Part shown: positions 15,311 through 32,906 of the stretch, in pieces | Layout of the letters: each line of letters opens with the position of its first letter | Position numbering within the stretch: the first letter of the stretch is position 1 | From: a virus | Lineage: Duplodnaviria; Caudoviricetes | Direction: 5' to 3' (one strand) | DNA: 36,394 nt | Virus record (IMG/VR): IMGVR_UViG_3300009786_000034 | Span: 1 to 36,394 of that record | Notes under the pieces: model-generated | What the model saw: only the letters and a program-made list of their open reading frames with translations | Databases searched by the model: none | What the model was told of the DNA's origin: nothing | Program-made: the position numbers and the translations under genes

Positions 15311-17761
15311 CTACTTGGTGATTGTCTTTTTTATTTTTTTTGGAACAACTGTGACTTCGGGGCCTCTCGTTGAGATTTGAAAATCCTTTTCTCCACTCAT
15401 CAAGAAGGGGGCCAACTTATTTTCAATTTCTTCTTGAATGAGTCGTCTAATGGGCCTCGCTCCATCATTTTGTTCTTCGGTTTTTTTTGCTAAAATTGTC
15501 CGCACTCGTGGTAATATTTTAAGTTTAACATCTGATTTCCCAAGTTTTCTTTTTAAATGGGCCAGTTCTAAACTTACAATCTTTTTTAATTCTTCTTCTC
15601 CAAACTGATTGAAGACTAAAATCTCGTCAATACGATTTAGGAACTCGGGCTTGAAAAAGCGCTTAGCTTCTTTGATTACTGCCGCCGCTCCATCTTCTTC
15701 AGTTTTGGAGAACCCCATGCTTTTCGCATTCATAAGAGAAGCTCCTACGTTGCCTGTCAGGATCAAAATACAATTAGAAAAACTAACCTCTTTTCCGAAA
15801 CTATCTGTGAGCTTGCCTTCCTCCATTATTTGAAGAAGCATTTGATGAATAGACGTATCGGCCTTTTCAATTTCATCAAATAAGATAACCGAATAAGGAT
15901 TTTTCTTGACTTTTTCGGTAAGCTGGCCGCCCTCTTCATACCCTACATACCCAGGAGAAGAACCAACCAAGCGGGACCCTGAAATCTTTTCGGAATATTC
16001 AGACATATCTAATTGAATTAAGCAACCTTCTCCGCCAAAAGCTTCTTTGGCTAAAGCCTTGGCTAAATGGGTTTTTCCCACTCCGCTAGTACCTAGGCAC
16101 AAAAATGAGCCAAATGGTTTGTTCTTCTCCTTGAGGGCCGTATGCCCCCTAAGAAGAGAATTATAAATTTTAGTGATGGCTGCGTCTTGCCCTACAACAA
16201 TTTTTTGGAGACGATCATGGGCTCCAAGTAGCCTCTGAGAAGAAGAAGAATAAACAGAGTCTAGGGGAATTTTGGCTTTTTGAGAAAGAGCCTTAAAAAT
16301 ATTTTCCTCCGAAACCGAGAGCTTCCCTTTAGCTTTTTCTGACGCCCAGTCTATTAAGAGGGATTCGTATTCGCTGTATAGTTTCATTTGTTGGTGTTTA
16401 ATAGGGTTAACATCTCCAACAGCCTCGTCTTCTAAAAGCATAAGATCTTCTATCTTCTTTTCTAGCTCTCGCGCACGGGGAGGGCGCTTATAAAGCTTAA
16501 GTTTTGCCTTGGCTCCCGCATGATCCATTAAATCTAAAGCTTTATCGGGAAATCGCTTATCTCCCATGTATTTATCGCTTAAATGCACACAAAGCCGCAG
16601 TAAATCATCGGAGTATTTAATTCCATGAAATTCTTCGTAATAAGGGCGAGCTCCTTTAAGTATCTCGAGAGTATTTTCTAACGACGGTTCTTCTACTTTT
16701 ATTACCTGAAACCGCCTATCTAAAGCTCCATCTTTGGCGATGGTTTTTTTATGTTCTTCAAATGTCGTAGCCCCAATGCAAACAACCTCTCCCCTCGCAA
16801 GCGCGGGCTTTAAGAGATTAGCTGCATCCATAGTACCCTCGGCACTTCCCGCTCCCACTAAAGTATGGATCTCGTCAACAAAAAGAATGACACGCTCGTT
16901 GGTGGACGCCGCCTTGATTAGTTTTTTAAGTCGCTCTTCAAATTGTCCTCTATATTTAGTGCCCGCCACCAACAGGCCCATATCTACCCCATAAATAACT
17001 TTATTTAATAAAAATTCAGGAGCTTCTCCGCTGACGATACGCTGAGCTAAACCTTCGACAACAGCTGTTTTTCCTACTCCTGGATCTCCCAGTAGAATAG
17101 GGTTGCTCTTCTTCCTCTTACATAATACTTCCGCGACTTCCTTGACTTCTTCATCCCTACCAATAAGAGGGTCGAGCTTATCATTGCTGGCTAATTCATT
17201 AAAATTAATAGAGAACTTGGTTAAATCTCCCAACCGTAAATCATGATCCGCCGCAGGAATCTCGAGCACATCCTCCTCAGCCCCTTGCTCTAAGGGGCTC
17301 TCCGATAGGTCGTCGTCTAAAAAACGCCTTTTCATTGTCGCCGCCATCAGATTAGGGTCTACTCCTGCAGCTACAATATATTGATAAAGCGGAGAATTTT
17401 TATATTGAAAAAGTGCTAAAAAAATATGTTCTACTCCTACGTACCCGTGGTCAAGCCTTTCTGCTATCTTTACCGCAATTGTAAGCGCCTCCTGCGCCTT
17501 TTGAGAGAAAGATAATGCCGCCGTCCTCTCTCCAATAAAATTCTCGTCCTTATCAATAAGAGAAAGCAGGTAAAGCTGCAGCTCTGCTGGATCAAGCTTC
17601 ACTCCGCGAAGGGTGTGAGTAACCACGATAGCCTGCACCTCAAGGATGCCATAACACAAGTGGGCGATAGAGATAATTTCTCTATTACTCTCACGAGCGG
17701 CTAATTTAGCGATTTGTAAGGCTTCTTGCGCTCGAGGCGTAAAATTAGGCTTTGTCTCCAT
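15311..17761 (-). CDS. clpC: ClpC/ClpA-like ATP-dependent Clp protease ATPase subunit
   Basis: Double Clp-N repeat; NBD1 GDPGVGKT/LFVDEIH; short middle coiled coil; NBD2 GTSGVGKT/ILFDEIEKA; GYVG pore loop; MGF ClpP-docking tripeptide. Confidence 0.92.
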   Translation of the reverse strand: METKPNFTPRAQEALQIAKLAARESNREIISIAHLCYGILEVQAIVVTHTLRGVKLDPAELQLYLLSLIDKDENFIGERTAALSFSQKAQEALTIAVKIAERLDHGYVGVEHIFLALFQYKNSPLYQYIVAAGVDPNLMAATMKRRFLDDDLSESPLEQGAEEDVLEIPAADHDLRLGDLTKFSINFNELASNDKLDPLIGRDEEVKEVAEVLCKRKKSNPILLGDPGVGKTAVVEGLAQRIVSGEAPEFLLNKVIYGVDMGLLVAGTKYRGQFEERLKKLIKAASTNERVILFVDEIHTLVGAGSAEGTMDAANLLKPALARGEVVCIGATTFEEHKKTIAKDGALDRRFQVIKVEEPSLENTLEILKGARPYYEEFHGIKYSDDLLRLCVHLSDKYMGDKRFPDKALDLMDHAGAKAKLKLYKRPPRARELEKKIEDLMLLEDEAVGDVNPIKHQQMKLYSEYESLLIDWASEKAKGKLSVSEENIFKALSQKAKIPLDSVYSSSSQRLLGAHDRLQKIVVGQDAAITKIYNSLLRGHTALKEKNKPFGSFLCLGTSGVGKTHLAKALAKEAFGGEGCLIQLDMSEYSEKISGSRLVGSSPGYVGYEEGGQLTEKVKKNPYSVILFDEIEKADTSIHQMLLQIMEEGKLTDSFGKEVSFSNCILILTGNVGASLMNAKSMGFSKTEEDGAAAVIKEAKRFFKPEFLNRIDEILVFNQFGEEELKKIVSLELAHLKRKLGKSDVKLKILPRVRTILAKKTEEQNDGARPIRRLIQEEIENKLAPFLMSGEKDFQISTRGPEVTVVPKKIKKTITK

Positions 17762-17771
17762 CTGTTATTAT

Positions 17772-17777
17772 ATACAC
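17772..17777 (-). promoter_or_regulatory. GTGTAW motif
   Basis: GTGTAT 10 nt before the clpC ATG. Confidence 0.55.
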
Positions 17778-20362
17778 TATTTAATGTCGCTTAATTTCAT
17801 GAAAATTCTCTCATCTATTATTGAAAGGTTCTCCATAAATAAAATATCCTCTCCTTTTCGGGCAGAGAAAACAATAATGCTCTCTTTCTTTGGCATCTTG
17901 TTGTTACTTAAAAAATTGTCTACCCGATTATTCTGCTTCCAGCCCCCATCAGTTCTTTGCCTGCCATTAAGAAGCATAGCGTCTACGGAAGCGGTTTCAT
18001 CGGTTAGGGAAAATTTAATGTAATCATTTCCATTGCGGCTTCTGCGTTTAATGAGGTCCGAGATGACGGCAATAAACCGTCCTGGGGATCCCTCGTCAAG
18101 GTTAACTGAATGAAGTAAATTATCTAATTTCTGACCTTCAAAAACCTCCGTAAGGCGGTGCGTATAACTATAGCCTAGCAACTTCCTCTCGAAAAACCAG
18201 TTCGCAAACTTTTCCTGTTTTCTATTCTGATTATAAATCTCGCGATAAGGCATGTACTTTTTCTTGAAGGTGCCAAATCTTTTCTCCGACATTAAAATTT
18301 TTGCATCGTCTCCGAGTATCTTGCTCTTTAATACATCGGCAATTGAATCTAATAACTTATAACTATATTTTTCTCCTAACTCTACGAAATTTCTTTTCTC
18401 CCTATCTGTTAAAACATTAAAAGCCTGAGCCTCTAGCACTAGAAGTGAGCGGCTACCCTCTGAGCACGAAGACATGGCTCCCGCTTGAATTAGGGCAGAT
18501 AAGGTTCCGATGTTTAAGCCTGCACTTTTAGCGGTTAAAAAGATATCATATTTAGTTGCCCTGTCTGAATCCCTAAAGTCTTTAAGGTTTTGAAGAGACT
18601 TTTCACTAATCCCCTTAATGCTATTTAATCCATACCTAATATTAGAACCCTCTATAGTAAAATCCATATCGGATTTTATAAGATCAGGAGCGAAAAGCTT
18701 AATGTTAAAATGCGGTAGTTCTTGTGTGATCCTACAAATTTCATCATAGGGCGCAGGCTCAAACTTTGTCATTCGTAATAGCGAGCGGAAAAATTGAAGC
18801 GGGTATTTGAATTTTAAATAAGTAGTCCATGCCGCGAGAGTAGAGTAGGCAATGGAATGGCTTTTATTGAATGAGTAATTGGCGCTATCTTCTGCAACGC
18901 TCCATAATACATCACCGACTTCGTGAGGTAAATTATTTTCTATAATCTTTTGTTCAATCTTCTCCTTCCACAGAGACATCTCTTCAACCTTTTTCTTTCC
19001 GACAATACGGCGTAGCTGTTCTGACTCGTCAAGACTGAAACCTACTTTAACCGCCATCTTCATGAGCTGTTCTTGGTAGAGAGGAATACCTCCTGTATAG
19101 GATAGAACGTCATCAAAAAAGGGATGGATGCTTTGGGTTTCTCCTGTGGTAGCATACTTAGTATAACTATCCAAAAAATCTAAGGCACCTGGCCGACCGA
19201 TTGCAATCACCGCGCTGAGATCTTCAAGAGTCTTGGGCTTAACTTTTTTACATACTTTAAAATTAGTGTCTGCCTCGATTTGAAACAGTCCATGAGGACA
19301 GCGCAGGTCTTTTGCTAGCGGCTCAAAAACACTTTTATCGTCTAAGGAAATATCATCTACACTAATGCCAATTTCATCACACACGTCATAAATAACGCTT
19401 AAGGTTCTTAACCCTAGAATATCAAACTTAACCATTAACTCTGCCACCCAATTCATATCGTAACCGCTTACTAAGCCTCCATCACTAGTGCGTTGGAGTG
19501 GACAAATATCTTCTAGCTTTTGATGGGAAATCGCTATACCTGAAGGATGAACTCCTGTATTTTTATTAAGCCCTTCTAGCTTCTGCGCTACCTCATAAAC
19601 GTCAGTATTTTCTGCTACCCACGCCTCAAATTTCTCGCTCTCTAATACCGAATCTAATAAGGGGGCCACCTTGCCAAACTTTTTAGGGATAAAATCACTA
19701 ACAATATTGACATCCTGTTCTGAATAAAAGCCTACAATTTTACCGCACTCTTTAATGCAAAGCTTACTGCTTAGGGTGTTTAGTGTTAAAATATTACAAG
19801 TCCGCGCGGGATACCTCTGTTCAATGAACTTTACTACTTGAGACCTTTTCTCGTAGGAAATATCGTTATCAATATCCGCCAACAATGAGCCATCTAGATA
19901 AGTTAACCCATCCTTCCCTTCGATTTTCTTGGCTCGACTTTTGCTTACAAAGCGCTCGAAATATAAATCATATTTAACTGGGTCAATATTAGTGACCCCA
20001 ATCAAGTATAAAACAAGAGAACCTGCTGCTGATCCACGGCCTGGGCCTGTGGGGATATCATTTTCCTCGCAAAAGTTATGTACATCCCAATTAAGAAGGA
20101 TGTAATCTATAAAGCCAAGGTCTTCCAGAATATCCAGCTCTTCCTTGGCCCTCTCATAATAAGCGTCTTTATTTTTAAAATGATTAATCTCCCGTTTTTT
20201 AATGCCCTCCCAGCATAAACGCTTAAGAAAATCAAAGTTAGAAATGCTCTCTTCTACGCCTAAAGAAGTATAAAATCTTTTTTCTATTTTAATCTCAGGT
20301 AATCTTACTCCTGCGGGACAGGCATCCTCATAGCCTGCGAATGATTTAAAAAATTCGCTCAT
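17777..20362 (-). CDS. dnaE: DNA polymerase III alpha catalytic core lacking the N-terminal PHP domain
   Basis: GPGRGSAAGSLV, FERF, DIDND, HPSG, KFDILGL, YQEQ, YSFNKSH, C-terminal OB-like segment; ATG at 20362 overlaps the exonuclease stop. Confidence 0.93.
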   Translation of the reverse strand: MSEFFKSFAGYEDACPAGVRLPEIKIEKRFYTSLGVEESISNFDFLKRLCWEGIKKREINHFKNKDAYYERAKEELDILEDLGFIDYILLNWDVHNFCEENDIPTGPGRGSAAGSLVLYLIGVTNIDPVKYDLYFERFVSKSRAKKIEGKDGLTYLDGSLLADIDNDISYEKRSQVVKFIEQRYPARTCNILTLNTLSSKLCIKECGKIVGFYSEQDVNIVSDFIPKKFGKVAPLLDSVLESEKFEAWVAENTDVYEVAQKLEGLNKNTGVHPSGIAISHQKLEDICPLQRTSDGGLVSGYDMNWVAELMVKFDILGLRTLSVIYDVCDEIGISVDDISLDDKSVFEPLAKDLRCPHGLFQIEADTNFKVCKKVKPKTLEDLSAVIAIGRPGALDFLDSYTKYATTGETQSIHPFFDDVLSYTGGIPLYQEQLMKMAVKVGFSLDESEQLRRIVGKKKVEEMSLWKEKIEQKIIENNLPHEVGDVLWSVAEDSANYSFNKSHSIAYSTLAAWTTYLKFKYPLQFFRSLLRMTKFEPAPYDEICRITQELPHFNIKLFAPDLIKSDMDFTIEGSNIRYGLNSIKGISEKSLQNLKDFRDSDRATKYDIFLTAKSAGLNIGTLSALIQAGAMSSCSEGSRSLLVLEAQAFNVLTDREKRNFVELGEKYSYKLLDSIADVLKSKILGDDAKILMSEKRFGTFKKKYMPYREIYNQNRKQEKFANWFFERKLLGYSYTHRLTEVFEGQKLDNLLHSVNLDEGSPGRFIAVISDLIKRRSRNGNDYIKFSLTDETASVDAMLLNGRQRTDGGWKQNNRVDNFLSNNKMPKKESIIVFSARKGEDILFMENLSIIDERIFMKLSDIK

Positions 20363-20997
20363 AGCTCCACCTCCCACAACTGGCGCCTAAAAATCTTATA
20401 ATTCATCTTTACATCGTAAATAGCGTCATGAAGTTTTTTGGGGTCAAACTTTAAATCATAAGATTTACATAGCGCAGTGATACTAGCCTTCATTCCTCTC
20501 TCTCTAAAAGAAGTAAGCTTATATTGCCAAGACAAAAGGTTTTCTTTAGGAGGTTTCATTTCTTTATAAATTGCCTTGGCCACACATAGGGTGTCAATAA
20601 GATCAGAGAGGTAAGAGTAGTCGGGTTTCTTATTAAGGAGCTTCCTGAAAATAGAATGAATATAAACATCAAAACCTAATAAGTTATGGCCCAGCTTTAT
20701 ATAGGACGGGTCGTATAAATACTTTTCCAAAAAGTCTAAGACCTTTTCTGGCTCCACCGCTTCCTTCTCGTACTTGCGCCTGTTAAAGCCCGTAATTCGG
20801 GCGGCGTCTGCGGAGATATTTAAATCGTCCCACTTAATTAAAAAATCAAACTCTTTTTCTATCTCGTCTCCTTTACATAGAATAAATCCCAGTTGCCACG
20901 GTTTGTTGTCGAGGCTCGCTAGGTTGAGGTTGCACGTTTCAAAATCAAAGACCATATACTTTTGATTGGGCTTAAATCTTAGAAGTTCTTCTTTCAT
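20359..20997 (-). CDS. DEDDh 3'-5' exonuclease (epsilon/DnaQ-like)
   Basis: VFDFET, GHN..GFD, IDTL, HDAIYDV; start placed behind the promoter. Confidence 0.88.
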   Translation of the reverse strand: MKEELLRFKPNQKYMVFDFETCNLNLASLDNKPWQLGFILCKGDEIEKEFDFLIKWDDLNISADAARITGFNRRKYEKEAVEPEKVLDFLEKYLYDPSYIKLGHNLLGFDVYIHSIFRKLLNKKPDYSYLSDLIDTLCVAKAIYKEMKPPKENLLSWQYKLTSFRERGMKASITALCKSYDLKFDPKKLHDAIYDVKMNYKIFRRQLWEVEL

Positions 20998-21004
20998 CCT
21001 TAGT

Positions 21005-21033
21005 ATTGTACTATATTCCTTGTGGCTAGTCAA
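21005..21033 (-). promoter_or_regulatory. sigma70-like promoter
   Basis: TTGACT-17-TACAAT, 7 nt before the ATG at 20997. Confidence 0.75.
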
Positions 21034-21040
21034 TAAAATA

Positions 21041-21046
21041 GTGTAA
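21041..21046 (+). promoter_or_regulatory. GTGTAW motif
   Basis: GTGTAA 9 nt before the ATG at 21056. Confidence 0.55.
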
Positions 21047-21055
21047 TTCTATTGA

Positions 21056-21517
21056 ATGAGCGATATAAGCATTATAACTGGGGCAGCTGTCTGTATCTGC
21101 GGAGCCTTTGTCACGGGTTCCGTAGCGTTCGTTATTAAATCCTTAATGAATGATATTAGGCAGGCCGAGGTGACTGCGGAAAAGGGCATGGAATTTGTAA
21201 GATCTGAGCTTTTTGGTTTAAGGAAGTCTCTTGAGGCATTTAAGACGGAAGAGAGGCATAAGGATGATGATTTAAAAGTAGCTATTGATGGTACCAAGAA
21301 AGAACTAAGACAAGAAGCTAGGTCCGATAGAATGTATGTAGACCAAACTAAAGGTGAGCTCAAGAACGAAATGCAGAACTACTGGGGAAAGGCCGAAAAT
21401 GTTTTGGAGGCGCGACGACAGGATGTTTATATGATCCATAAAAAAATAGATGTAATCAAAGACTCGTTAAGCGAAAAGCTGGCCCACCTCAATTCCTCCC
21501 ATTCAAAAGAAAATTGA
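21056..21517 (+). CDS. membrane-anchored coiled-coil protein
   Basis: One N-terminal TM helix followed by a charged helical region. Confidence 0.75.
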   Translation: MSDISIITGAAVCICGAFVTGSVAFVIKSLMNDIRQAEVTAEKGMEFVRSELFGLRKSLEAFKTEERHKDDDLKVAIDGTKKELRQEARSDRMYVDQTKGELKNEMQNYWGKAENVLEARRQDVYMIHKKIDVIKDSLSEKLAHLNSSHSKEN

Positions 21518-21566
21518 TCGTTAGGTGGTCGCTAAAGTTTTCCTATGGGGATTTTTTTATTTTCAT

Positions 21567-21572
21567 GTGTAA
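21567..21572 (+). promoter_or_regulatory. GTGTAW motif
   Basis: GTGTAA 9 nt before the ATG at 21582. Confidence 0.55.
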
Positions 21573-21581
21573 CTATACTAC

Positions 21582-21929
21582 ATGAGCGTAAATGTAGCAT
21601 CCAGCGGAGTTTTTCTTGACATCACCAGTGATGCCACCAATCTAACTATTCCTATAGCCTCTATTCGATATGGGGGAGGGACGATAACCCAGGCAATAGC
21701 CACAGGAGATTACAGAGGACTCATGAGGGGAATACAGGAAAGTTACCATTATTTCATGACAGGAGTAGCAACAGGCACAAGTAACCCCGCTGACTTTAAT
21801 AAGCCTTCGTTTTTTGGCGACTCCCTTGGCGGCTACCAAGTTTATCAAAGCGATTATTTAAAAAGAACTTATCGGACTGACTTGTATTACGATATCATGG
21901 ACAGTCACACGATACCTGACGAGTCCTAA
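21582..21929 (+). CDS. hypothetical protein, possibly virion-associated
   Basis: 115 aa, G/S/T-rich; converges on the PHP gene with a 2-bp gap. Confidence 0.7.
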   Translation: MSVNVASSGVFLDITSDATNLTIPIASIRYGGGTITQAIATGDYRGLMRGIQESYHYFMTGVATGTSNPADFNKPSFFGDSLGGYQVYQSDYLKRTYRTDLYYDIMDSHTIPDES

Positions 21930-21931
21930 GC

Positions 21932-22660
21932 TTAAAGCCAGTCTTCAAAACAAAAAGAATCGCTTCCTTGATGGTCAAAATTAGGGACGTTTAAATCTCT
22001 GGTTTTAAATGTTCGATTACAAATACATTTATAGGTTTGGTAGGCAACAAAATCTTTTCTGTTTTTATAGAAAACGCTTTTAGTCTCCTCTATGCCATAA
22101 CAATTCCTATCACAATACGAATCTACTTTGTCTCCAACTAAGCCATCAAATGGTAAGCCATTGTCTTCTATAAAAAAGGTTGGGTCAGCGAAAGAGAAAT
22201 CAGGAGTGCAGTTAGCAAAAGACATGGCGTTATTAAAAATAAAAGAATCGTAAAAAGGTATAGCTAACTTAAGGTGATCTTCAGTCCATATATCTCGTAA
22301 GTATTCTTCTTTTAAAACTCCTTCTCCGTATCCAAAGGCATTTGTATAAATTTTATTTAATAACTTACATCCCTCTGAGTCTTTAGCGAAAACTATAACT
22401 TTGTGTTGACATGCTTCTTCATTGTCTGGCGCATTTGAAAGAGAAATTCTTAATCCAAACCTTAGTTCGAAACCATAAGTCTCGCATTTTTTACGGGCTT
22501 CGAGGAATCCAATTAAAGAATCTTCTACTAAAGCTACCTCCTTAAGGCCCCCTTCTTGGGCCAAGGCAAAGATGCTACGTTTCTTGGTGCGTTCATTAAT
22601 CTCTTCAAGAGTTAAAATACTGCGACCAATTGAATAGTGGGATTTAAATAGAGGAATCAT
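21932..22660 (-). CDS. stand-alone Pol III alpha PHP-like domain
   Basis: LFKSHYSIGRSIL, VALVED..GF, RFGLRI, HKVIVFAKDSEGCKLLNKIYT parallel the DnaE N-terminal motifs (H.HS.YS, A.TDH, I.G.E, HL.LLAK...GY.NL). Confidence 0.8.
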   Translation of the reverse strand: MIPLFKSHYSIGRSILTLEEINERTKKRSIFALAQEGGLKEVALVEDSLIGFLEARKKCETYGFELRFGLRISLSNAPDNEEACQHKVIVFAKDSEGCKLLNKIYTNAFGYGEGVLKEEYLRDIWTEDHLKLAIPFYDSFIFNNAMSFANCTPDFSFADPTFFIEDNGLPFDGLVGDKVDSYCDRNCYGIEETKSVFYKNRKDFVAYQTYKCICNRTFKTRDLNVPNFDHQGSDSFCFEDWL

Positions 22661-22666
22661 TGTGAT

Positions 22667-25180: not shown

Positions 25181-26691
25181 AATAGATCAGGGATGTCGTC
25201 TAAAATCGCCTGTTGGGGACGCAGATTGACAAGGTTTAAGGCATCTACCATATCCTGAAGATCTCCACGTTCTTCAATGGAAAAATTATCCATTTTTAAG
25301 TTAATATAATTATTCCGCTTGGAGCCATCGGGCATTTCAATAGGCTGAATGGCTCGCTGAAAATTAGAACCTAAATGCCTGGACTTTAAACAAGATAACT
25401 GGTGGGTACCGAAATCATCAGGCTCTTCCTGTATTTGATCGAGCGTTTTCCGCCTTAAGTGAAACATGTGAGAACAATACTGAATGATGCGGTCAGAAAG
25501 AGAAACCACACTTTCGTCATCTATTGTATTCTCTGCACGACGATTGGTAGTAATTCCATAACGATTACTCTGAACGCTGGTAATCATAGAAATAAGCGGG
25601 CCATCATCTCCAAGTATCTCTTTCTGAATCAAATTCTTAAATTGAGTAATCATATCTCCAACCACCTGCCACTCGCCCTGATTCTTATTTTGGGCTTGAT
25701 CTGTGGTTTTAATGTAATCAAAACTAAAAATCAAAGGGTTTCCTCTTCCTACTTTGGAATAATAAAATCGACGTATAACATTAGTCATCTCGTCTACGCT
25801 AAGGCCTGCAACATTATAATAATAAAACTTAAAGTTCTTAATTGTCTTCCATACCGCCCTCACTCGCCGAACAAAATCTGCATTATTTCTCCAAAGCCCC
25901 GTTTCTAAATAATGAATAGGAACCTTAGAAAGGGCGGCACACTGCCTCATTGTCAACTCTTCTTGTGACATTTCTCCATTATCAAAATGGAGAACGGGGA
26001 CATTATCATATTTCTCCGAAACTTTAGTAACAAAATCCAAGCAAAAAGTTGTCTTTCCTACTCCCGAACGAGCAACAACCACGGAAATATTCCCAGGCCT
26101 TAAAAGAGAACCATAAAGTTCGTTTAATCTCTCATACGGACCCATGAAACCAAATTCGGTCTTCGGGTTATCTCCGCGCTCCTCAATAAAGCCCTCCATA
26201 GAGTCATAAATATTATGGGGGGTATCATTAGAATGATAAAGGTCGATCTGTTTATTAAAAAGCGAATCGGCATGCTGGATTATCTCATCAAAAGTATGGT
26301 TAGAGCCCAGACTTTTCATTTTATTGGCTACGTCTATGGCGGCCAGGCGAATGGAGCGTCGGACACTAACTTTTTTAAGCTCTTTGGCAGCGTTAAGGAC
26401 TCCATCTTTAGAAATTTTCCGCAAACCTAAAGAGTGTATGTACTGCCCTACATCAACATTATCTTTGAAGGAGATGTTAAAGTCTTGTACTTTTTGAGCG
26501 ACAACCACTTCATCCACATGCTCTCCTCTCTCCAAGCAATTCTTTAGTATTTTGAATATCGTAGCATGTACTTGGCTGGACTGCGTGGAGAAATCTCCTT
26601 CATTTATAAATGGAGCTAACTCCGCATAAACAGTAGGGTGTTTAATTAATCCTGCTAAGAGATGTCTCTCAAGTTCCTTCGACTCAATCAT
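25177..26691 (-). CDS. dnaB: replicative DNA helicase
   Basis: N-terminal E..LL...DF...H..IF; Walker A ARSGVGKT, EMS.EEL, FDYI, Q.NR, K.RH. Confidence 0.88.
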   Translation of the reverse strand: MIESKELERHLLAGLIKHPTVYAELAPFINEGDFSTQSSQVHATIFKILKNCLERGEHVDEVVVAQKVQDFNISFKDNVDVGQYIHSLGLRKISKDGVLNAAKELKKVSVRRSIRLAAIDVANKMKSLGSNHTFDEIIQHADSLFNKQIDLYHSNDTPHNIYDSMEGFIEERGDNPKTEFGFMGPYERLNELYGSLLRPGNISVVVARSGVGKTTFCLDFVTKVSEKYDNVPVLHFDNGEMSQEELTMRQCAALSKVPIHYLETGLWRNNADFVRRVRAVWKTIKNFKFYYYNVAGLSVDEMTNVIRRFYYSKVGRGNPLIFSFDYIKTTDQAQNKNQGEWQVVGDMITQFKNLIQKEILGDDGPLISMITSVQSNRYGITTNRRAENTIDDESVVSLSDRIIQYCSHMFHLRRKTLDQIQEEPDDFGTHQLSCLKSRHLGSNFQRAIQPIEMPDGSKRNNYINLKMDNFSIEERGDLQDMVDALNLVNLRPQQAILDDIPDLL

Positions 26692-26698
26692 GTATATA

Positions 26699-26726
26699 AG
26701 AATATACTATATTGAGAAAATGTCAA
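26699..26726 (-). promoter_or_regulatory. sigma70-like promoter
   Basis: TTGACA-16-TATTCT, 7 nt before the dnaB ATG. Confidence 0.65.
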
Positions 26727-26729
26727 GAA

Positions 26730-27011
26730 CTATGATTCCTCAATACCCTCGTCTCCGTCCATTCCCATATCAATACCAAACACCGAGCTTGTGTCTTCGG
26801 CCTCTTGCAAATAGGACTCCATAGCTTTTCTGAGCCCAAACTCTACTATCTTGCTGCCATACCGAGCATAAATTAAAGGTGAGCCGTCTTGAGTCAAATA
26901 TACCAACAGCACCCCTCTAACACTCTCTATTGGGCCTGAAAACTCATATATTTTATCAAAAAGCTTACTGGGCACCTCAAACTGGGGCAGATCTTCTGGA
27001 TCGAAATTCAT
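26730..27011 (-). CDS. hypothetical protein
   Basis: 93 aa with an acidic tail; GTGTAA motif upstream. Confidence 0.75.
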   Translation of the reverse strand: MNFDPEDLPQFEVPSKLFDKIYEFSGPIESVRGVLLVYLTQDGSPLIYARYGSKIVEFGLRKAMESYLQEAEDTSSVFGIDMGMDGDEGIEES

Positions 27012-27023
27012 AGTTATTATATA

Positions 27024-27029
27024 TTACAC
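27024..27029 (-). promoter_or_regulatory. GTGTAW motif
   Basis: GTGTAA 12 nt before the ATG at 27011. Confidence 0.5.
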
Positions 27030-27032
27030 TTA

Positions 27033-27443
27033 TTAAAGTAAAACCCCATGTTTTTTAAAAAAAGACGGAGTTAATTCCTTGAGGTTGTAAATTTCAAGGA
27101 GCTGAATATTGTTTATTTTACAAAATTTTAATTTATTCTGGTCTCTTCGTAATTGATTGATATAATTATACTTGTTTCCTCCGTGAAAAAAGGGGGTATA
27201 CCTGCGGTGCTGCTCGCCCTGTACCTCTATAGCTATTTTTTTATTTGCATTATAAAAATCCAAGGACATCTTAGTGCCTGCAACGGGAAACTCCTCGAAG
27301 ACTACCTGATTGTGCCAGTATTTTTTAAGAAAGTCTTTTGTGCTCTTTTGTATTTTACTCCTGCTCTTTCCCTCCCAATCAATTAAATATTTTTTTGCAT
27401 TGGATATATTTCTGACTGCTCCTACGAGAGTTTTGAATTTCAT
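27033..27443 (-). CDS. Vsr/DUF559-like endonuclease
   Basis: LDFY...IAIEVQGEQH...RD..K..FC...I.LLEI. Confidence 0.78.
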   Translation of the reverse strand: MKFKTLVGAVRNISNAKKYLIDWEGKSRSKIQKSTKDFLKKYWHNQVVFEEFPVAGTKMSLDFYNANKKIAIEVQGEQHRRYTPFFHGGNKYNYINQLRRDQNKLKFCKINNIQLLEIYNLKELTPSFFKKHGVLL

Positions 27444-28534
27444 TGAATAGAATCTACTTCTTCCTTAATTAAGTTAAGTAAGAAATCCCTAAAAGCTCCA
27501 TTCTTCTCTAGATAGTCTATTAATTTCGGTTCCCCTTGTATTTTTTCGATGTATTCTATACCTTTCTCTTGGCATTTTTCAGCAATATCTTTATCTAATG
27601 AAATCCATGCGCCCTTCTTTTCTAGAAATCCCCATAGATAAGCAAGCTCTATCACCTCCTTCTCTAACCACACAGAAGTTCCCCCCGTTCGCCCATAACG
27701 AATAGGATATCTTACGGAAGCTCCTGTTTTTTCATTAACACTTTTACGAAAAATAATCTTGCAGATATGCCCAATAGGATTACCTTTGTCCTCCAGTTTT
27801 GAGGCGCTTGGATTCTCAAAAATGATGTCATTCATATATCTTTCTTGAAACTCCAAGATAAAATTAGCATAATGCTTGATTGCATTTCCTCCTGCCTGTT
27901 TGGTCTTGGGGCCGCCTCTCGCAGCATAAGGGTTCGTGGCTACTTCTACTCGAACTTGGGAGGTTAAAATCATCATGTGATTAAGTTTTAAAATAGGTAA
28001 AACCATTTTCTTTAAAAAAACAGAGGTAATTAAAGCTCCGCCCGCTACCTGTTCGCTATCCTCAAAAGGTTTATCGTAATCATTTTGCCGACAGAGGGCA
28101 TCTACGCTATCTACGATAAAAAGATATTTTTTCTCATCTTTATTTTGAAGAACAAGCATGCGAATTAATTCAAACACTTTCTCGAAGACGTTACAGTCAA
28201 ACTTAAAAAACCTTTCTTCGGAAGTATCTACTCCCGAGCGCTTCATTAATTCTGGACCCAACCTGCCTTCGCTTTTCACATATACCACCATCCCCTTGTC
28301 TCCGAACTGATCCTGAAAGCGTTTCGCAACAGCTAAAGCGCACGATGTTTTCCCTCCCTCATTTACTCCAGTAAAACGATGTACTCCCGTAGGTAGACCT
28401 CCTCCTAGTGCAAGGTCTAGATTCAAGCTTCCTGTCGGCACTTTATAATCAAGCTCTTCATGATCATTATAATGAAATTTTTTATTATCCTTGTCCGCGA
28501 GGAAAGCCTTGATCTTATCTAGTGTGTCGCTCAT
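27440..28534 (-). CDS. recA: RecA/UvsX-like recombinase
   Basis: TGSLNLDLALGGGLP, GVNEGGKTS, IVDSV, SQVR, GGNAIKHYA; start MSDTLDK. Confidence 0.88.
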   Translation of the reverse strand: MSDTLDKIKAFLADKDNKKFHYNDHEELDYKVPTGSLNLDLALGGGLPTGVHRFTGVNEGGKTSCALAVAKRFQDQFGDKGMVVYVKSEGRLGPELMKRSGVDTSEERFFKFDCNVFEKVFELIRMLVLQNKDEKKYLFIVDSVDALCRQNDYDKPFEDSEQVAGGALITSVFLKKMVLPILKLNHMMILTSQVRVEVATNPYAARGGPKTKQAGGNAIKHYANFILEFQERYMNDIIFENPSASKLEDKGNPIGHICKIIFRKSVNEKTGASVRYPIRYGRTGGTSVWLEKEVIELAYLWGFLEKKGAWISLDKDIAEKCQEKGIEYIEKIQGEPKLIDYLEKNGAFRDFLLNLIKEEVDSIQ

Positions 28535-28535
28535 T

Positions 28536-28880
28536 TTAGGTTGACAAAAAGTCTTTGATTGTTCTTCTTTGTTTTTCAATGTTTGCATCTTCTCCTTCTT
28601 TTATATCGCTTAATTTATGAATTACGGGCGATGGTATTTTATAATTATACTCTCCAAACTTCCTTTTTACAAGCTTTTTCCAATTAGTGCTAGCTAAAAT
28701 AGCTAAGCTGTCAAACTTTTGGCCAAAATCTACATTGCTCCAGAAGCATTGATCAGGGAACTCTTTTAAAAATCTATTAAGAAGGGTCATCTCCTTCTTC
28801 CAAAAGGGCCGCTTATTGGTCTTGGGTTCGTTGATATGACGTTGAATGATTTGTCTTTTATTAAGGCATTTATTTTTCAT
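28536..28880 (-). CDS. hypothetical protein
   Basis: 114 aa, first gene behind a promoter. Confidence 0.75.
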   Translation of the reverse strand: MKNKCLNKRQIIQRHINEPKTNKRPFWKKEMTLLNRFLKEFPDQCFWSNVDFGQKFDSLAILASTNWKKLVKRKFGEYNYKIPSPVIHKLSDIKEGEDANIEKQRRTIKDFLST

Positions 28881-28890
28881 TGCAACACCT

Positions 28891-28919
28891 ATACTATCAC
28901 AACCTATCCCTTATGTCAA
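28891..28919 (-). promoter_or_regulatory. sigma70-like promoter
   Basis: TTGACA-17-TAGTAT, 10 nt before the ATG at 28880. Confidence 0.7.
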
Positions 28920-28941
28920 GGACGATAATCTAATTTAAAGC

Positions 28942-29958
28942 CTAAAAATCATCCTCTAGGGAGCCTGACTGCTGGTATTCCCTCACCCTTCTTTCAAAGA
29001 AGTTAGTCATAGCCTGCGTATCCACTACCTCAGATAACCAAGGAAAGGGGTTATGGTCGCTCGGAAATCTATAATCCAACCCTACCGCTCCTAATCGGCG
29101 GTTTCCTATATAATGCATATAGTCTACAAACATATCGGCATTTAATCCAAGGATTCCTGTGGGTAATACATCTTTTGCGTAAGCTACTTCTAGTTCCACA
29201 GTTTTTTTCATGTGCTCTGTGAACTCCTCTTGAATAGCTTTCGTCCAAATCTTAGGGTTTTGATCTATTAAAGTATTAATAAGATAAGTCCCAAACTCAA
29301 TATGCAAGCTCTCATCTCTCAATGTATATTTAATTTGATCGGAGACTCCCTGTAATTTATTCTGCCTGCCCAGTGCCAATAGCATTGCGAAGCCAGAGAA
29401 GAAAAAAGTTCCTTCACATATAATATAATAAGTAAATAGGTTCTTAAGTAATTCCTTCTTGCCTTCTAGTGTGCTGGTGCTAAAATCATTTCTAGTTAAG
29501 TCGCTCGTAATGTTTATTAAAAAATCATCCTTGGCTTTAATAGAGGGGATGGTTTCATAAGCCCGAAAGACCTCATCTACATCGAGATCGAGACTATCGC
29601 ATATGTACACAATAGTGAGGTTGTGCAAGCTCTCCTCGTAAGCCTGCCTCAAAATATACTGGCGACACTCTGGGTCTGTAATATATTTAAATGCAGAAAG
29701 AAGTAAATTGTTTCCAACCAGAGACTCGCTGCCAGCAAAAAAACCCAAACATCTTTTTACTAAAAGCTTTTCATCGTTAGAGATTTCTCCATTCTTCCAT
29801 TGAGCTATATCCTCTTGCATGGATATCTCTGTAGGCATCCAATTATTAGCGCAACCCTTAAGAAAGAGATCCCATGCTAATTTATGTTTATGAGGGAGTA
29901 TCCTATTGACTCCCGCACTATTCTCGCTTACTAAATCCCCTGATTTTTCTTTACTCAT
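28942..29958 (-). CDS. nrdB: ribonucleotide reductase beta subunit, class Ic-like
   Basis: W.P.EI, FFAGSESLV, EESLH, EG.FF.GF, RDESLH, NFFERRV.EYQ. Confidence 0.93.
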   Translation of the reverse strand: MSKEKSGDLVSENSAGVNRILPHKHKLAWDLFLKGCANNWMPTEISMQEDIAQWKNGEISNDEKLLVKRCLGFFAGSESLVGNNLLLSAFKYITDPECRQYILRQAYEESLHNLTIVYICDSLDLDVDEVFRAYETIPSIKAKDDFLINITSDLTRNDFSTSTLEGKKELLKNLFTYYIICEGTFFFSGFAMLLALGRQNKLQGVSDQIKYTLRDESLHIEFGTYLINTLIDQNPKIWTKAIQEEFTEHMKKTVELEVAYAKDVLPTGILGLNADMFVDYMHYIGNRRLGAVGLDYRFPSDHNPFPWLSEVVDTQAMTNFFERRVREYQQSGSLEDDF

Positions 29959-29964
29959 CGCGCT

Positions 29965-29993
29965 ATCTTATACTACTTCGCACTAAAATACAA
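29965..29993 (-). promoter_or_regulatory. sigma70-like promoter
   Basis: TTGTAT-17-TAAGAT, 6 nt before the nrdB ATG. Confidence 0.55.
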
Positions 29994-29998
29994 GCTTT

Positions 29999-30424
29999 TT
30001 ATATATCCGCATAAGCCGTAAGTATACGAGAGTGAGGATTGAAGATACGAGGGGTAGGGCTAACCTGACGGTAGTACTTCTGCACTCTTTGTATGAGGGC
30101 TACAGTTACGTCCGTATTTATTTCAAATAGAAAATAATGAACCCTCATTATTTTTTGGGACAAGGCTGAGTAAAGGGCGCTTATATAGGGTTCGGGGTCC
30201 TCCTTTATCTTAATGAAAAACAAGGCGGGAATTTGTAAAGTATCTATCTCACTCATAACCTCCTCCAAGTGCTTAAGCTCTAGAACAGAGGTGAGGCTGG
30301 CGCTTTCGTGGGCGCTCAGGAAGCCCTGGTTGAAAATATTGAAAGCCCCTTTTTCTCCTCCAAAGGCATGAAGAAGCTTCTTGTAGCTCTTGAGTGCGCT
30401 ATAAATTAATGGTGCGCGATTCAC
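29999..30424 (-). CDS. hypothetical protein coupled to clpP
   Basis: GTG at 30424 overlaps the clpP stop (GTGA). Confidence 0.65.
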   Translation of the reverse strand: MNRAPLIYSALKSYKKLLHAFGGEKGAFNIFNQGFLSAHESASLTSVLELKHLEEVMSEIDTLQIPALFFIKIKEDPEPYISALYSALSQKIMRVHYFLFEINTDVTVALIQRVQKYYRQVSPTPRIFNPHSRILTAYADI

Positions 30425-31143
30425 TTTAACTCCCCTCTTATCTCGTCTACAAGACCGAGCTCTAGGGCTTCGTCCGAAGAGATCCACCAGTCTTTTCTGT
30501 CCCAGTTTCTTTTTATTTTAACCTTACTAAGGGTAGATCTTTTTGCAAAAATATCCAAGATGCGAGCTTCAATTCTTTTTATCCATGCTACTTCATCTTC
30601 AATTTCAAACGTTTTGCCGACAGCGCCAAAGGCTGCTCGATGAATCATAAGCCAAGCCTGATGCCCAATCCACCGACGATCTCCTGCCTGCAATAAAATA
30701 CCTGCCATAGAAGCCGCCATTCCTAGAGAGCCTGTAGTGACACAATGCCCGCGAGAACGGAGCTCTTGAATGAAATCAAATAAAACAAACCCGTCAATAA
30801 TCGAACCTCCTCCCGAGGAAAAGACAATTTCAATGTCACAGTTAGGATGCCTTCGTGACCACTGGGTTAACTTATACATACACTTGTTGACATTTGCTTT
30901 GTCTACCCCCGTATTAAAGCGGTAAACCATGTTCTCCTCGTCATGAGCTTTGTCTCTCCCCCAGTCTTGCTCTTTTTTCTTAGCCTCTATCAAGTTCATT
31001 CGTGCCATGTATTCGCTTTGATCTGCTTGCGCATTAATCTTGCGTGTTTCTGCTTTGAGTTTCAAGGTCTCCGCCTCAACCCTAAGTGTTTCGGCCTTAA
31101 TTTTAACTAACTCTTCTTTGGTTTTTTTTACGTCGTCTGGCAT
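30421..31143 (-). CDS. clpP: ClpP-like serine peptidase with an N-terminal heptad extension
   Basis: SSGGGSIIDG, GMAASMAG (Ser), LMIH (His), RKDWWIS..EALELGLVDEI (Asp). Confidence 0.88.
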   Translation of the reverse strand: MPDDVKKTKEELVKIKAETLRVEAETLKLKAETRKINAQADQSEYMARMNLIEAKKKEQDWGRDKAHDEENMVYRFNTGVDKANVNKCMYKLTQWSRRHPNCDIEIVFSSGGGSIIDGFVLFDFIQELRSRGHCVTTGSLGMAASMAGILLQAGDRRWIGHQAWLMIHRAAFGAVGKTFEIEDEVAWIKRIEARILDIFAKRSTLSKVKIKRNWDRKDWWISSDEALELGLVDEIRGELK

Positions 31144-31201
31144 TATTATAATAATAAGAGTGGCGGCTGGTTTTTAAAGCTAAAAGAACTTTTTATTTTG
31201 C

Positions 31202-31207
31202 GTGTAA
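31202..31207 (+). promoter_or_regulatory. GTGTAW motif
   Basis: GTGTAA 8 nt before the ATG at 31216. Confidence 0.55.
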
Positions 31208-31215
31208 CTTTATAT

Positions 31216-31524
31216 ATGTTAGTATCTATTAGCGCTCATCTTACAGAGCCTCCCAGCAGAGTTACGTGTTTTCGGGATGTAACATTATATTCTTCTTGTT
31301 TTTTAGATAATGAAAATCTTTTAGAATGCGACCCCTCTTGCCAGGATTTATATTGGCGGTGGCTCAAACGATATGGAGCATGGGATTTCGTTAAGGATAT
31401 TGTTCCTCCAAATTACCCTGTAAACATTTCAATCCGAGAGCGCGGAGGATCTATTAGCATTCCTCGATTAGGGTGTAGAAATTTAAATTCTGTTATAGCA
31501 AAGCTAGAGTCTTACTCTCGTTAA
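31216..31524 (+). CDS. hypothetical protein
   Basis: Fills the gap between clpP and the tmRNA 3' end; start moved to the ATG behind the motif. Confidence 0.6.
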   Translation: MLVSISAHLTEPPSRVTCFRDVTLYSSCFLDNENLLECDPSCQDLYWRWLKRYGAWDFVKDIVPPNYPVNISIRERGGSISIPRLGCRNLNSVIAKLESYSR

Positions 31525-31526
31525 AA

Positions 31527-31960
31527 TGGTGGAGATGGCGGGAGTCGAACCCGCGTCCTTGTGTAGATCTATAATTTATCTCGTTACAAGTTTGTCCTGC
31601 TTTTTTATGTTGTTGCAAACTCAACATTCAGTTTCATTTATTTGTCTCCGAATACTCAGCGAACTACAGTTTATGAATATGAATAACTTTTTCTGTTTTT
31701 GCAGATGTCGTCCCCACCTTCTTTTATCTGCGTCCAAGAGGCGAGGGGCAGCTTATGCTGCAACAGCCAGCTGACGCGCAACGCTCTTACGAGCTGCAAC
31801 CTTGAGAGTTGCCACCTTCTTAGAAGGATTGAAGCGGTCAAGCAGACCTTTTACAAGTTTAGAATTGGCACTTATGTATAAGCCTAGGCTTTTTAAGGAG
31901 CCAGCCCACTCCTACTTGCAATAAAAAATTTAGCTAACAAGTCGAATCCTTGTCATCCCC
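31527..31960 (-). ncRNA. ssrA: tmRNA (434 nt)
   Basis: 5' GGGGATG pairs with 3' CATCTCC-A-CCA including the G3:U wobble; GGATTCGAC; T-arm GCGGG-TTCGACT-CCCGC; pk1 AGGAG/CTCCT plus TGGGCT/AGCCTA; helix 2 pairing; tag ORF. Confidence 0.96.
31753..31869 (-). other. tmRNA tag reading frame (38 codons)
   Basis: ATAAGT-GCC resume context after pk1; ANSKLVKGLLDRFNPSKKVATLKVAARKSVARQLAVAA*; stop codon in the loop of hairpin GCAGC-ATAA-GCTGC. Confidence 0.85.
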
Positions 31961-31982
31961 ATATCAAATAACTAAAAAGAGT

Positions 31983-31988
31983 TTACAC
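31983..31988 (-). promoter_or_regulatory. GTGTAW motif upstream of the tmRNA
   Basis: GTGTAA 22 nt before the mature 5' end. Confidence 0.5.
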
Positions 31989-31991
31989 TAC

Positions 31992-32906
31992 TTACTTATA
32001 AATGTCAAGCTTCGGCTCCCTCTTAATGAGAAAAGGAAACTTAGTTAACTCGGTTGACGAGCTTCCCTCGCCCCCGTTTTTAAGGCCGCTATCCTCTACC
32101 GCAATTTTTTCAAGATTCTCTAAAGAAGGAGAGTCAATATTGGGATCAAGAGCCCAAAGCACATCGTTTTCCTTTGCCCAGCGCTTCATGCGTCTAATTG
32201 GGACCGTTAAATTAAAACCCTCTCCAGCCCCTCTTACAAGCATGCCTACATAACGACCATCGGTAAGAAACACTCCTCCTCCCGAGGAGCCTGGGAACGC
32301 GGTAACAGTAGTCTGGTCATACTCTCTTTTCCCGTGGATTCTGCCTACTTGAGAAACAATACCTGTCGTCATTGAATTTGCCCCCATCTGACCCAATAAA
32401 GAACCTACGTGAAAAAGGCTCGTCCCAATCGGAATGATGGCGTCGTCTTTATTAAGATAAAATCTAGCGCTTTCTTTTGAATAATCTTTGGCTCTCACCA
32501 TTAGAAGGGCTAGGTCATGTCCGTCATCTGCATTGGAATATTTAATTACCATTGCGTCCATCTTAATCTCTCCAACACGCCTGCCCTCTGCCACCAACTC
32601 TTTGACAATCTGTGCGTCCTTAAATTCTACAACCTTTCGTGGGCGTCCGTTTTCATCAATAACATCCCTGACGGTTCTGAGGTTATCCACTACATGGCCC
32701 GCCGTCCAAACGAAAGTGACTTCCTCCCCTTCGATTTCTCTTACGATAAGAACTCCCGAGCCTTCTGACTTACTCCACTTCCCCTCGGACTTAATAGTAA
32801 CGGAAATGTCTTGAAGAAAATTGGCGACTCGTTTTCTATTTTTTAAATCCTCTCCAAAAATAGGATTAAGGCTTACAAATAGCAATAATAATGTAATGTA
32901 TTTCAT
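31992..32906 (-). CDS. exported trypsin-like (S1) serine protease without a PDZ domain
   Basis: Signal peptide; GSGV, TAGHV, DLALL, PGSSGGG catalytic triad motifs. Confidence 0.88.
   Translation of the reverse strand: MKYITLLLLFVSLNPIFGEDLKNRKRVANFLQDISVTIKSEGKWSKSEGSGVLIVREIEGEEVTFVWTAGHVVDNLRTVRDVIDENGRPRKVVEFKDAQIVKELVAEGRRVGEIKMDAMVIKYSNADDGHDLALLMVRAKDYSKESARFYLNKDDAIIPIGTSLFHVGSLLGQMGANSMTTGIVSQVGRIHGKREYDQTTVTAFPGSSGGGVFLTDGRYVGMLVRGAGEGFNLTVPIRRMKRWAKENDVLWALDPNIDSPSLENLEKIAVEDSGLKNGGEGSSSTELTKFPFLIKREPKLDIYK

What the first reader, a model, noticed from the sequence alone, without database searches (positions are those of the whole stretch)
15311..32906. Candidate phage-encoded tag-and-degrade system: tmRNA + ClpP + ClpC
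Seen: an intact tmRNA (31527-31960) lies about 380 bp from a ClpP-like gene with a full catalytic triad. A ClpC-like unfoldase with an MGF docking loop lies at 15311-17761. The tmRNA and clpC are both preceded by the GTGTAW motif. Established: tmRNA tags stalled peptides for Clp proteases, and phage ClpP genes are usually prohead proteases beside portal/capsid genes, none of which are adjacent here. Inference: the phage brings its own trans-translation and proteolysis arm. It could rescue ribosomes stalled by anti-phage RNases or tRNA cleavage, or reroute tagged proteins to a phage protease. No smpB is seen in the window, so host SmpB is presumably used.
Basis: partly seen in the sequence, partly recalled or inferred. 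Interest (0 to 1): 0.88.

Follow-up and report, generated by a model that had tools for sequence, protein, structure and literature searches.

The report
Marine phage tmRNA with long tag
An uncultured marine phage carries its own ribosome-rescue RNA (tmRNA), which would add an unusually long 38-residue tag kept under protein-level selection, but the nearby ClpP-like protease and the ClpC unfoldase are inherited separately in related phages, so the three genes are likely not one phage-run tag-and-destroy machine and likely rely on host SmpB and host ClpP.

Summary
All three genes are real: an intact tmRNA, a ClpP-like protease with its triad, and a ClpC with an MGF loop. The window is a tailed marine phage, likely of Verrucomicrobiota. 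The three-gene system is not supported. Of 15 near-complete tmRNA-bearing relatives, 15 have ClpC, 0 have ClpP and 0 have SmpB. A sister phage group has ClpP plus tmRNA without ClpC; another has ClpC without a detected tmRNA. The '380-bp gap' holds a conserved opposite-strand gene, and the closest relatives place clpP 4-19 kb away. GTGTAW is a general phage upstream motif, absent before clpP. ClpC keeps its ClpP-docking loop where no phage ClpP exists, so it likely uses host ClpP; the phage ClpP lacks the usual docking-pocket residues. What stands out is the tag: 59 distinct tags of 19-41 residues, charge -11 to +12, pN/pS 0.17, against 8-16 residues in likely hosts. Tag type does not follow the ClpC tree. 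Phage G already has tmRNA plus ClpXP in print, and this scan found the same long-tag tmRNAs on other DNA. New variant of a known kind.

The parts
31527..31960 (-). One-piece tmRNA gene, 434 nt, intact tRNA-like ends
   Evidence: Rfam RF00023 111.8 bits, model 1-374; acceptor stem, G3.U, ACCA; related RNAs in 107 of 117 new viral loci
31753..31869 (-). Tag reading frame, 38 codons plus stop; basic (net +8), ends LAVAA. Resume codon placed by position and consensus, not by experiment
   Evidence: in-frame purifying selection across the family
31983..31988 (-). GTGTAA upstream motif of the tmRNA (general phage motif, likely a promoter element)
31992..32906 (-). Trypsin-like serine protease with a hydrophobic N-terminus, directly upstream of the tmRNA in the window's subgroup only
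   Evidence: PF13365; adjacent in 5 of 70 tmRNA loci; absent beside the tmRNA in L003 and L110 of the same tag group
31216..31524 (+). Conserved 102-aa gene of no known family between tmRNA and clpP; travels with clpP in the closest relatives and occurs elsewhere in both phage groups
   Evidence: tblastn 59-62% to L295-L298, hits in many other loci; no atlas hit
31202..31207 (+). GTGTAA motif upstream of the 102-aa gene (points away from clpP)
   Evidence: kept in L295, L296, L297
30421..31143 (-). ClpP-like accessory protease: 57-residue N-terminal helix plus ClpP fold, intact triad, docking-pocket residues replaced
17772..17777 (-). GTGTAT upstream motif of clpC
   Evidence: present before clpC in 20 of 27 relatives
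15311..17761 (-). ClpC-type AAA+ unfoldase, core gene directly after dnaE, both ATPase domains intact, MGF ClpP-docking loop

Best explanation
The window holds three separately inherited host-takeover genes of a marine phage: a tmRNA that would use host SmpB to free stalled ribosomes and add a long tag likely read by host Clp proteases, a core ClpC unfoldase predicted to dock on host ClpP, and an accessory ClpP-like protease that likely works without an ATPase partner. Shown: the genes, their intact motifs, their separate distributions, selection on the tag frame, and the exchange of tag types between phages. Inferred: charging by host alanyl-tRNA synthetase through G3.U; delivery with host SmpB; degradation through the host-like hydrophobic, Ala-ending C-terminus; docking of phage ClpC on host ClpP. 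The 10-30 extra residues most likely tune how host proteases or adaptors handle tagged products, and are swapped as alleles; they are not matched to the phage's own ClpC.
For: The window's own ClpP as query: 0 of 5 complete records. Among 44 ClpP-bearing records: tmRNA over cut-off 14, ClpC over cut-off 2; among the 3 near-complete 3 and 0. ClpC-only group: tmRNA 0 of 17; its 94% complete record also lacks ClpP. Order: clpP within 10 kb in 2 of 70 tmRNA loci, clpC directly upstream in 6 of 70; 18.5-19 kb and 4.2 kb tmRNA-clpP distance in the closest relatives. ClpC: [VIML]GF loop in 114 of 114 homologs and a hydrophobic-GF loop in 28 of 28 tmRNA-bearing records, including all 15 near-complete ClpP-less ones. 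ClpP-like: Glu105 (68 of 70), Val/Ile107 (69 of 70), Glu/Asp127 (55 of 70) align to S. aureus Tyr61, Tyr63, His83 (that these form the ATPase pocket is recalled). Tag: pN/pS 0.17 in frame, 0.95 and 1.45 in the other frames, 0.19 for the extension alone; ends LAA in 41 of 59 tags. Decoupling: G059 and G064 have 80% identical ClpCs but 20-aa (+1) and 34-aa (-9) tags; G052 and G064 share 30 of 34 tag residues but only 42% ClpC identity. Long acidic tags also occur in the ClpC-less group.
Against: All three genes do co-occur in the window's subgroup (window and G002), whose tags end AVA or VAA rather than LAA, and the 6 clade-A ClpPs form one branch, so a local partnership is not excluded. Every near-complete tmRNA record examined has ClpC or ClpP, though both sets were found through one of the genes. 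tmRNA and clpC share the GTGTA motif (32 of 84 and 20 of 27). All records are metagenome contigs, none circular; absences rest on completeness estimates and on a first-pass filter. The ClpC-only group has just one record over 90% complete. The host is inferred. No function was measured.
Confidence: 0.55

Rival explanations
1. Hybrid protease: the phage tmRNA and phage ClpC are a working pair. ClpC docks on host ClpP and grips the long tag in a sequence-tolerant way, so tagged products are rerouted from host ClpXP. The ClpP-like gene is a bystander.
For: ClpC in 15 of 15 near-complete tmRNA records; clpC directly upstream of the tmRNA in 6 of 35 loci with at least 9 kb on both sides and within 10 kb in 13; shared upstream motif; invariant docking loop and pore loops; the class-I ATPase ClpA binds the E. 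coli tag (PMC9382460, passages).
Against: ClpC is a core gene, so co-occurrence is expected; ClpC persists without tmRNA (0 of 17); long tags persist without any Clp ATPase; tag type jumps across the ClpC tree and tag charge does not correlate with N-domain charge (rho -0.08, n = 28).
Confidence: 0.25
2. One reading: phage tmRNA, phage ClpC and phage ClpP form a self-contained tag-and-degrade system.
For: All three intact in the window and in G002; triad invariant; precedent for the gene set in phage G (tmRNA, ClpP, ClpX; PMC12484599, passages); subgroup tags end AVA/VAA.
Against: ClpP absent from 15 of 15 near-complete ClpC + tmRNA records; ClpC absent from near-complete ClpP + tmRNA records; intervening opposite-strand gene; adjacency not kept; pocket residues replaced and a 57-residue N-terminal helix present; no GTGTA before clpP.
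Confidence: 0.08
3. The long tag is not mainly a degradation signal. The phage tmRNA replaces or shields a host tmRNA attacked by a defence system, or its tagged products clog or inhibit host proteases, and the extension varies because it is the surface the host recognises.
For: Extreme between-lineage change (charge -11 to +12) with within-lineage purifying selection; allele exchange across phage lineages; defence systems predicted to target tmRNA exist (CoCoNuTs, PMC11090510, passages; a prediction in that paper).
Against: The C-terminus stays host-like (LAA in 41 of 59; all 59 end in Ala), as expected for a working degron. No defence system was linked to this host or phage here.
Confidence: 0.12

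Closest known systems
Bacterial one-piece tmRNA-SmpB trans-translation (Rfam RF00023; E. coli ssrA read by ClpXP/ClpAP)
   Same: Full-length Rfam match, G3.U acceptor stem (77 of 77 distinct family members parsed), encoded CCA (74 of 77), tag ending in hydrophobic and Ala residues.
   Different: Phage-borne, no smpB (0 of 42); tag 38 residues and basic here, 19-41 in the family, against 11 in E. coli (PMC9382460) and 8-16 in 32 Verrucomicrobiota loci.
Phage-encoded tmRNAs: Bacillus phage G, mycobacteriophage Bxz1 group, huge phages, Streptomyces and Stenotrophomonas phages
   Same: A large tailed phage carrying ssrA; phage G also carries clpP and clpX (PMC12484599, PMC4131195, PMC7162821, passages; annotations).
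   Different: Those tags are short (11-13 residues); phage G's clpP and clpX are adjacent, here clpP and clpC are 12.7 kb apart and not co-inherited; no sequence match beyond the 3' 32 nt.
ClpC-ClpP of Bacillus subtilis and Staphylococcus aureus (PDB 3j3s, 6em8); phage family phrog_4871
   Same: Double N-domain, two intact AAA+ domains, short M-domain, docking loop.
   Different: About 42% identical to cellular ClpC, below every NCBIfam cut-off; N-domain GTEH motifs degenerate; no cognate clpP in most carriers; sits after dnaE in the replication module.
Mycobacteriophage 'ClpP-like protease' (Gaia gp118, clusters with Klein, Faith1) and phrog_94
   Same: Best named match, 39.6% over 98% of the length including the long N-terminal extension; lies far from the head genes (gene numbers 86-152 in those records).
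   Different: Different host phylum; I found no paper on its function in the library. RefSeq copies label it 'head maturation protease', which the gene position does not support.
Mollicute long ssrA tags read by Lon (Mesoplasma florum)
   Same: A lengthened tag; precedent that tag length changes with the protease that reads it (PMC9382460, passages).
   Different: Mollicute tags end NYAFA and the hosts lack ClpXP; here the ClpX-type end is kept and the extension is swapped between phages.

Membership tests
tmRNA (RF00023) | Full-length match above the gathering score | tested here: met
   111.8 bits against 47, model 1-374
tmRNA (RF00023) | Alanine-type acceptor stem (G3.U) and CCA end | tested here: met
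   window; 77 of 77 and 74 of 77 distinct relatives, 20 of 111 loci not parsed
tmRNA (RF00023) | Tag reading frame with resume codon, stop and hydrophobic/Ala C-terminus | tested here: met
   resume codon placed by consensus
tmRNA (RF00023) | Is charged, binds SmpB and tags proteins in vivo | not testable with these tools
   only exact-match contigs in RNA libraries
ClpC (class I Clp ATPase, ClpP partner) | Two AAA+ domains with Walker A/B, pore loops, arginine fingers | tested here: met
   core residues invariant in 114 of 114 homologs
ClpC (class I Clp ATPase, ClpP partner) | [LIVM]GF ClpP-docking loop in D2 | tested here: met
   MGF 682-684; 114 of 114
ClpC (class I Clp ATPase, ClpP partner) | Short M-domain (not the long ClpB coiled coil) and double N-domain | tested here: met
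   colinear alignment with B. subtilis ClpC over residues 6-790; Clp_N hit
ClpC (class I Clp ATPase, ClpP partner) | Intact N-domain GTEH (phospho-arginine) sites | tested here: inconclusive
   first site degenerate, second keeps Glu in 94 of 114 but Thr in 4; role of these residues recalled
Housekeeping ClpP (TIGR00493) | Ser-His-Asp triad and ClpP fold | tested here: met
   70 of 70; model pLDDT 88.9 and fold matches
Housekeeping ClpP (TIGR00493) | Score above the family cut-off | tested here: not met
   73.7 bits against 308.6
Housekeeping ClpP (TIGR00493) | Aromatic ATPase-docking pocket and short N-terminal loops | tested here: not met
   Glu105, Val107, Glu127 at the Tyr61, Tyr63, His83 positions; 57-residue N-terminal helix
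ClpP-type head maturation protease (NF045542, phrog_94) | Score above cut-off | tested here: not met
   82.9 bits against 120; phrog_94 hit has no cut-off
ClpP-type head maturation protease (NF045542, phrog_94) | Sits between portal and capsid genes and is present in all clade members | tested here: not met
   0 of 15 near-complete relatives; in G070 beside phoH, 5.5 kb before the terminase; another gene after the terminase in G034 resembles S77 head proteases, a lead only
   needs biochemistry

The most novel reading that the evidence does not exclude
These phages rewrite the output of the host's ribosome-rescue pathway: a phage tmRNA writes a private 19-41-residue tag, exchanged between phages as alleles under host pressure, and a phage ClpC seated on the host's ClpP barrel reads it, creating a hybrid protease that takes control of which stalled products are destroyed during infection.
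Probability: 0.2. Interest if true: 0.8.

Novelty: new variant of a known kind. Interest (0 to 1): 0.42.

Why it matters
Phage tmRNAs are known, but what they do for the phage is largely untested. Here the tag is two to four times the host length, is demonstrably selected as protein, and flips between strongly acidic and strongly basic versions. That gives a ready panel of 59 natural tags for asking what a phage gains by changing the trans-translation signal. A phage ClpC that keeps a ClpP-docking loop without its own ClpP points to capture of the host protease. If the tags proved orthogonal to E. coli proteases they would be useful degrons, as the Mesoplasma tag is. The three-gene machine that made the finding exciting is not supported, which lowers the score.

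Tried and rejected
Complex prediction of two ClpP-like chains (64-240) with ClpC D2 (505-800): no answer, score 0.01, not evidence either way. Charge complementarity between tag and ClpC: none for N-domain, linker or C-terminus; M-domain rho -0.41, P 0.03, one of four tests on related sequences, not accepted. The careful ClpC tree did not finish; the quick tree was used. Host search by a tmRNA pattern in cellular genomes: 46 of 50 hits were chance; 4 were phage-type tmRNAs on contigs binned into unrelated genomes, so they do not name the host. nhmmer scores of the phage model did not separate Verrucomicrobiota tmRNAs from other bacteria. Pfam head-protease families S77 and S78 were not found in 5 complete records; the S77 control was silent, so this is inconclusive. 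ARAGORN missed the window's tmRNA and mis-called tags at low threshold. Lack of RNA cover over other genes in the four runs is not used; the deep 31-nt pieces at the CCA end carry mismatches and belong to other organisms. A structured RNA in the tmRNA-clpP gap was considered (conserved 190 nt) and rejected: it is a protein-coding gene (no Rfam hit). Cellular origin of the contig rejected. No cultured close relative in the phage collection. Paper searches with no result. Supplements were not read; those of PMC7162821 and PMC12484599 may list further phage tags or clpC genes.
Full report
What the window is. The 55 main ORFs scanned include DnaE, DnaB, primase, RecA, NrdB, ThyX, dCMP deaminase and GMP reductase, almost all on one strand. 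No whole genome is held. The DnaB finds 597 viral relatives, 80 kept, on contigs up to 184 kb. One complete relative, G034, has a terminase, tail genes, rIIA/rIIB and PhoH, so this is a tailed phage. Ten sequencing runs hold half or more of the tmRNA-clpP region, all marine or seawater metagenomes. The host is likely Verrucomicrobiota: the ClpC start (NFTPRAQ) matches Verrucomicrobiota ClpC in 7 of 10 loci read; these score up to 661 bits against 609 for B. subtilis (a different tool); G034 carries DUF1549/DUF1553 and DUF1501 genes, and the only 2 of 120 listed DUF1501 homologs with an organism name are Verrucomicrobiota; phage tag ends such as EELALAA match their tags. None of this is proof.

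The observation. Three points change. The 384 nt between tmRNA and clpP hold a 102-codon gene on the other strand, 59-62% identical in the closest relatives and widespread in the clade. GTGTAW is not enriched overall (14 against 19.3) but sits within 45 nt upstream of 7 of 53 genes against 0.5 expected (I widened the last base after looking). It precedes clpC in 20 of 27 and the tmRNA in 32 of 84 relatives, but not clpP. So it is a general phage motif, likely a promoter element. A trypsin-like protease lies directly upstream of the tmRNA.

Do the three genes travel together? A pattern from the phage tmRNA found 118 viral loci; 107 of the 117 new ones are related tmRNAs. All 5 DnaB-found contigs over 100 kb are among them. 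The window's ClpP found nothing in 5 complete records. G070 of that group has ClpP beside phoH and no Clp ATPase among the ORFs scanned. All three genes occur together only in the window's subgroup (window, G002). There clpP is 4.2 kb or 18.5-19 kb from the tmRNA. Across 70 tmRNA loci clpP is within 10 kb in 2 and clpC directly upstream in 6.

ClpC. Walker, pore-loop and arginine-finger residues are invariant and the [VIML]GF loop is present in 114 of 114 homologs. A hydrophobic-GF loop is present in all 28 tmRNA-bearing records with ClpC, including the 15 near-complete ones without clpP. A docking loop kept without a phage ClpP is best explained by use of host ClpP (inference). In 8 of 10 Verrucomicrobiota loci a recalled McsB-like motif lies beside clpC; the phage N-domain keeps only part of the GTEH motifs.

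ClpP-like protein. The best named match is the mycobacteriophage Gaia/Nebkiss 'ClpP-like protease', 39.6% over the full length. The model shows a 57-residue N-terminal helix on a ClpP fold. Positions matching S. aureus Tyr61, Tyr63 and His83 are Glu, Val/Ile and mostly Glu/Asp; from recall these residues line the pocket for ATPase loops. It is mostly found in phages without a Clp ATPase, so it likely acts alone. It is not the clade's head protease, since 15 near-complete relatives lack it; the 538-aa gene two places after the G034 terminase resembles S77 head proteases, a lead only.

The tag. The window's tag reads ANSKLVKGLLDRFNPSKKVATLKVAARKSVARQLAVAA. In 104 of 112 loci a tag could be read: 59 distinct peptides, 19-41 residues, net charge -11 to +12, all ending in Ala, LAA in 41. 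In 29 disjoint same-length pairs pN/pS is 0.17 in frame and 0.95 and 1.45 in the other frames; for the extension without the last 7 codons it is 0.19 (binomial P 5e-11; pairs are not fully independent and RNA structure may contribute). The acceptor stem keeps G3.U in 77 of 77 distinct sequences with compensatory changes. The 30 best-scoring of 93 Verrucomicrobiota matches plus 2 others have 8-16-residue tags, a sample biased to canonical RNAs. The sister group has 30-35-residue acidic tags. Tag type does not follow ClpC: 80% identical ClpCs go with 20-aa and 34-aa tags, and near-identical 34-aa tags go with 42% identical ClpCs. Exact-match contigs of 151-211 nt from the tmRNA occur in 3 of 4 seawater RNA libraries laid, at depth 2-3, one covering the tag; a fourth has 203 nt of clpP. 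This is weak support for expression, since DNA carry-over is not excluded.

How it most likely works. The phage makes its own tmRNA, likely from the GTGTA promoter. Host enzymes would mature and charge it, host SmpB would deliver it, and stalled products would receive the long tag and go to host Clp proteases through the host-like end. Phage ClpC would sit on host ClpP and change substrate choice as part of the core programme, with or without the tmRNA. The ClpP-like gene is an accessory passenger. I put this at 0.55, a tmRNA-ClpC-host ClpP pairing at 0.25, a non-degron role for the extension at 0.12 and the full phage system at 0.08.

What is known. Phage tmRNAs are in print (PMC4131195 and PMC7162821, passages; PMC4383926, first part of the text). 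Phage G has tmRNA, ClpP and ClpX, with a 13-residue tag (PMC12484599, passages). Mollicute tags are longer and read by Lon (PMC9382460, passages). CoCoNuT defence systems are predicted to target tmRNA (PMC11090510, passages). I found no paper on long, selected, exchanged phage tags or on a phage ClpC in nine searches (listings only, except the papers named); the library lacks most subscription papers and no supplements were read. This scan has reported the same kind of tmRNA beside ClpC on other marine phage DNA and a similar set in jumbo phages; those notes are unchecked and not counted as support.

Verdict. Real genes, no three-part system. The long, selected, exchangeable tag is a new variant of a known kind. 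Interest 0.42.

Noticed in passing
   Followed up: partly
window 31992-32906 (-); L299, L300, L310, L313, L329, L355: Trypsin-like protease with a hydrophobic N-terminus; in the sister group it often lies 1-2 kb from the ClpP-like gene, in several loci with tRNA genes nearby.
   Followed up: partly
window 17777-22660 (-): DNA polymerase III alpha is split: a separate PHP gene (21932-22660), an exonuclease (20359-21033) and a PHP-less DnaE, with two + strand genes inserted between; the split is shared by relatives.
   Followed up: no
window 32936-34405 (-): 489-aa membrane-anchored coiled-coil protein with no Pfam or PHROG hit, conserved upstream of recA in most relatives and often next to the tmRNA.
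   Followed up: no
L548:4796-8774 (G034): Phage-borne DUF1549/DUF1553 and DUF1501 genes, typical of Planctomycetota and Verrucomicrobiota, with many homologs on phage-sized contigs.
   Followed up: partly
L088 / G001:26845-29264: clpC of a close relative appears in two pieces; a frameshift or assembly error, not examined.
   Followed up: no
L218, L237, L248, L251: Phage-type tmRNAs on contigs binned into four bacterial genome assemblies of unrelated taxa; three of these genomes also show a separate ordinary tmRNA.
   Followed up: partly
L562-L566 (G070): Sister-group phage carries a large set of glycosyltransferases, proline dehydrogenase, ornithine cyclodeaminase, aldehyde dehydrogenase, a signal peptidase and two sigma-70 genes.
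   Followed up: no
window 35361-36394 (-): ORF with an internal repeat of about 70 residues rich in Thr-Gly-Cys motifs, running off the window end; probably a virion fibre protein.
   Followed up: no
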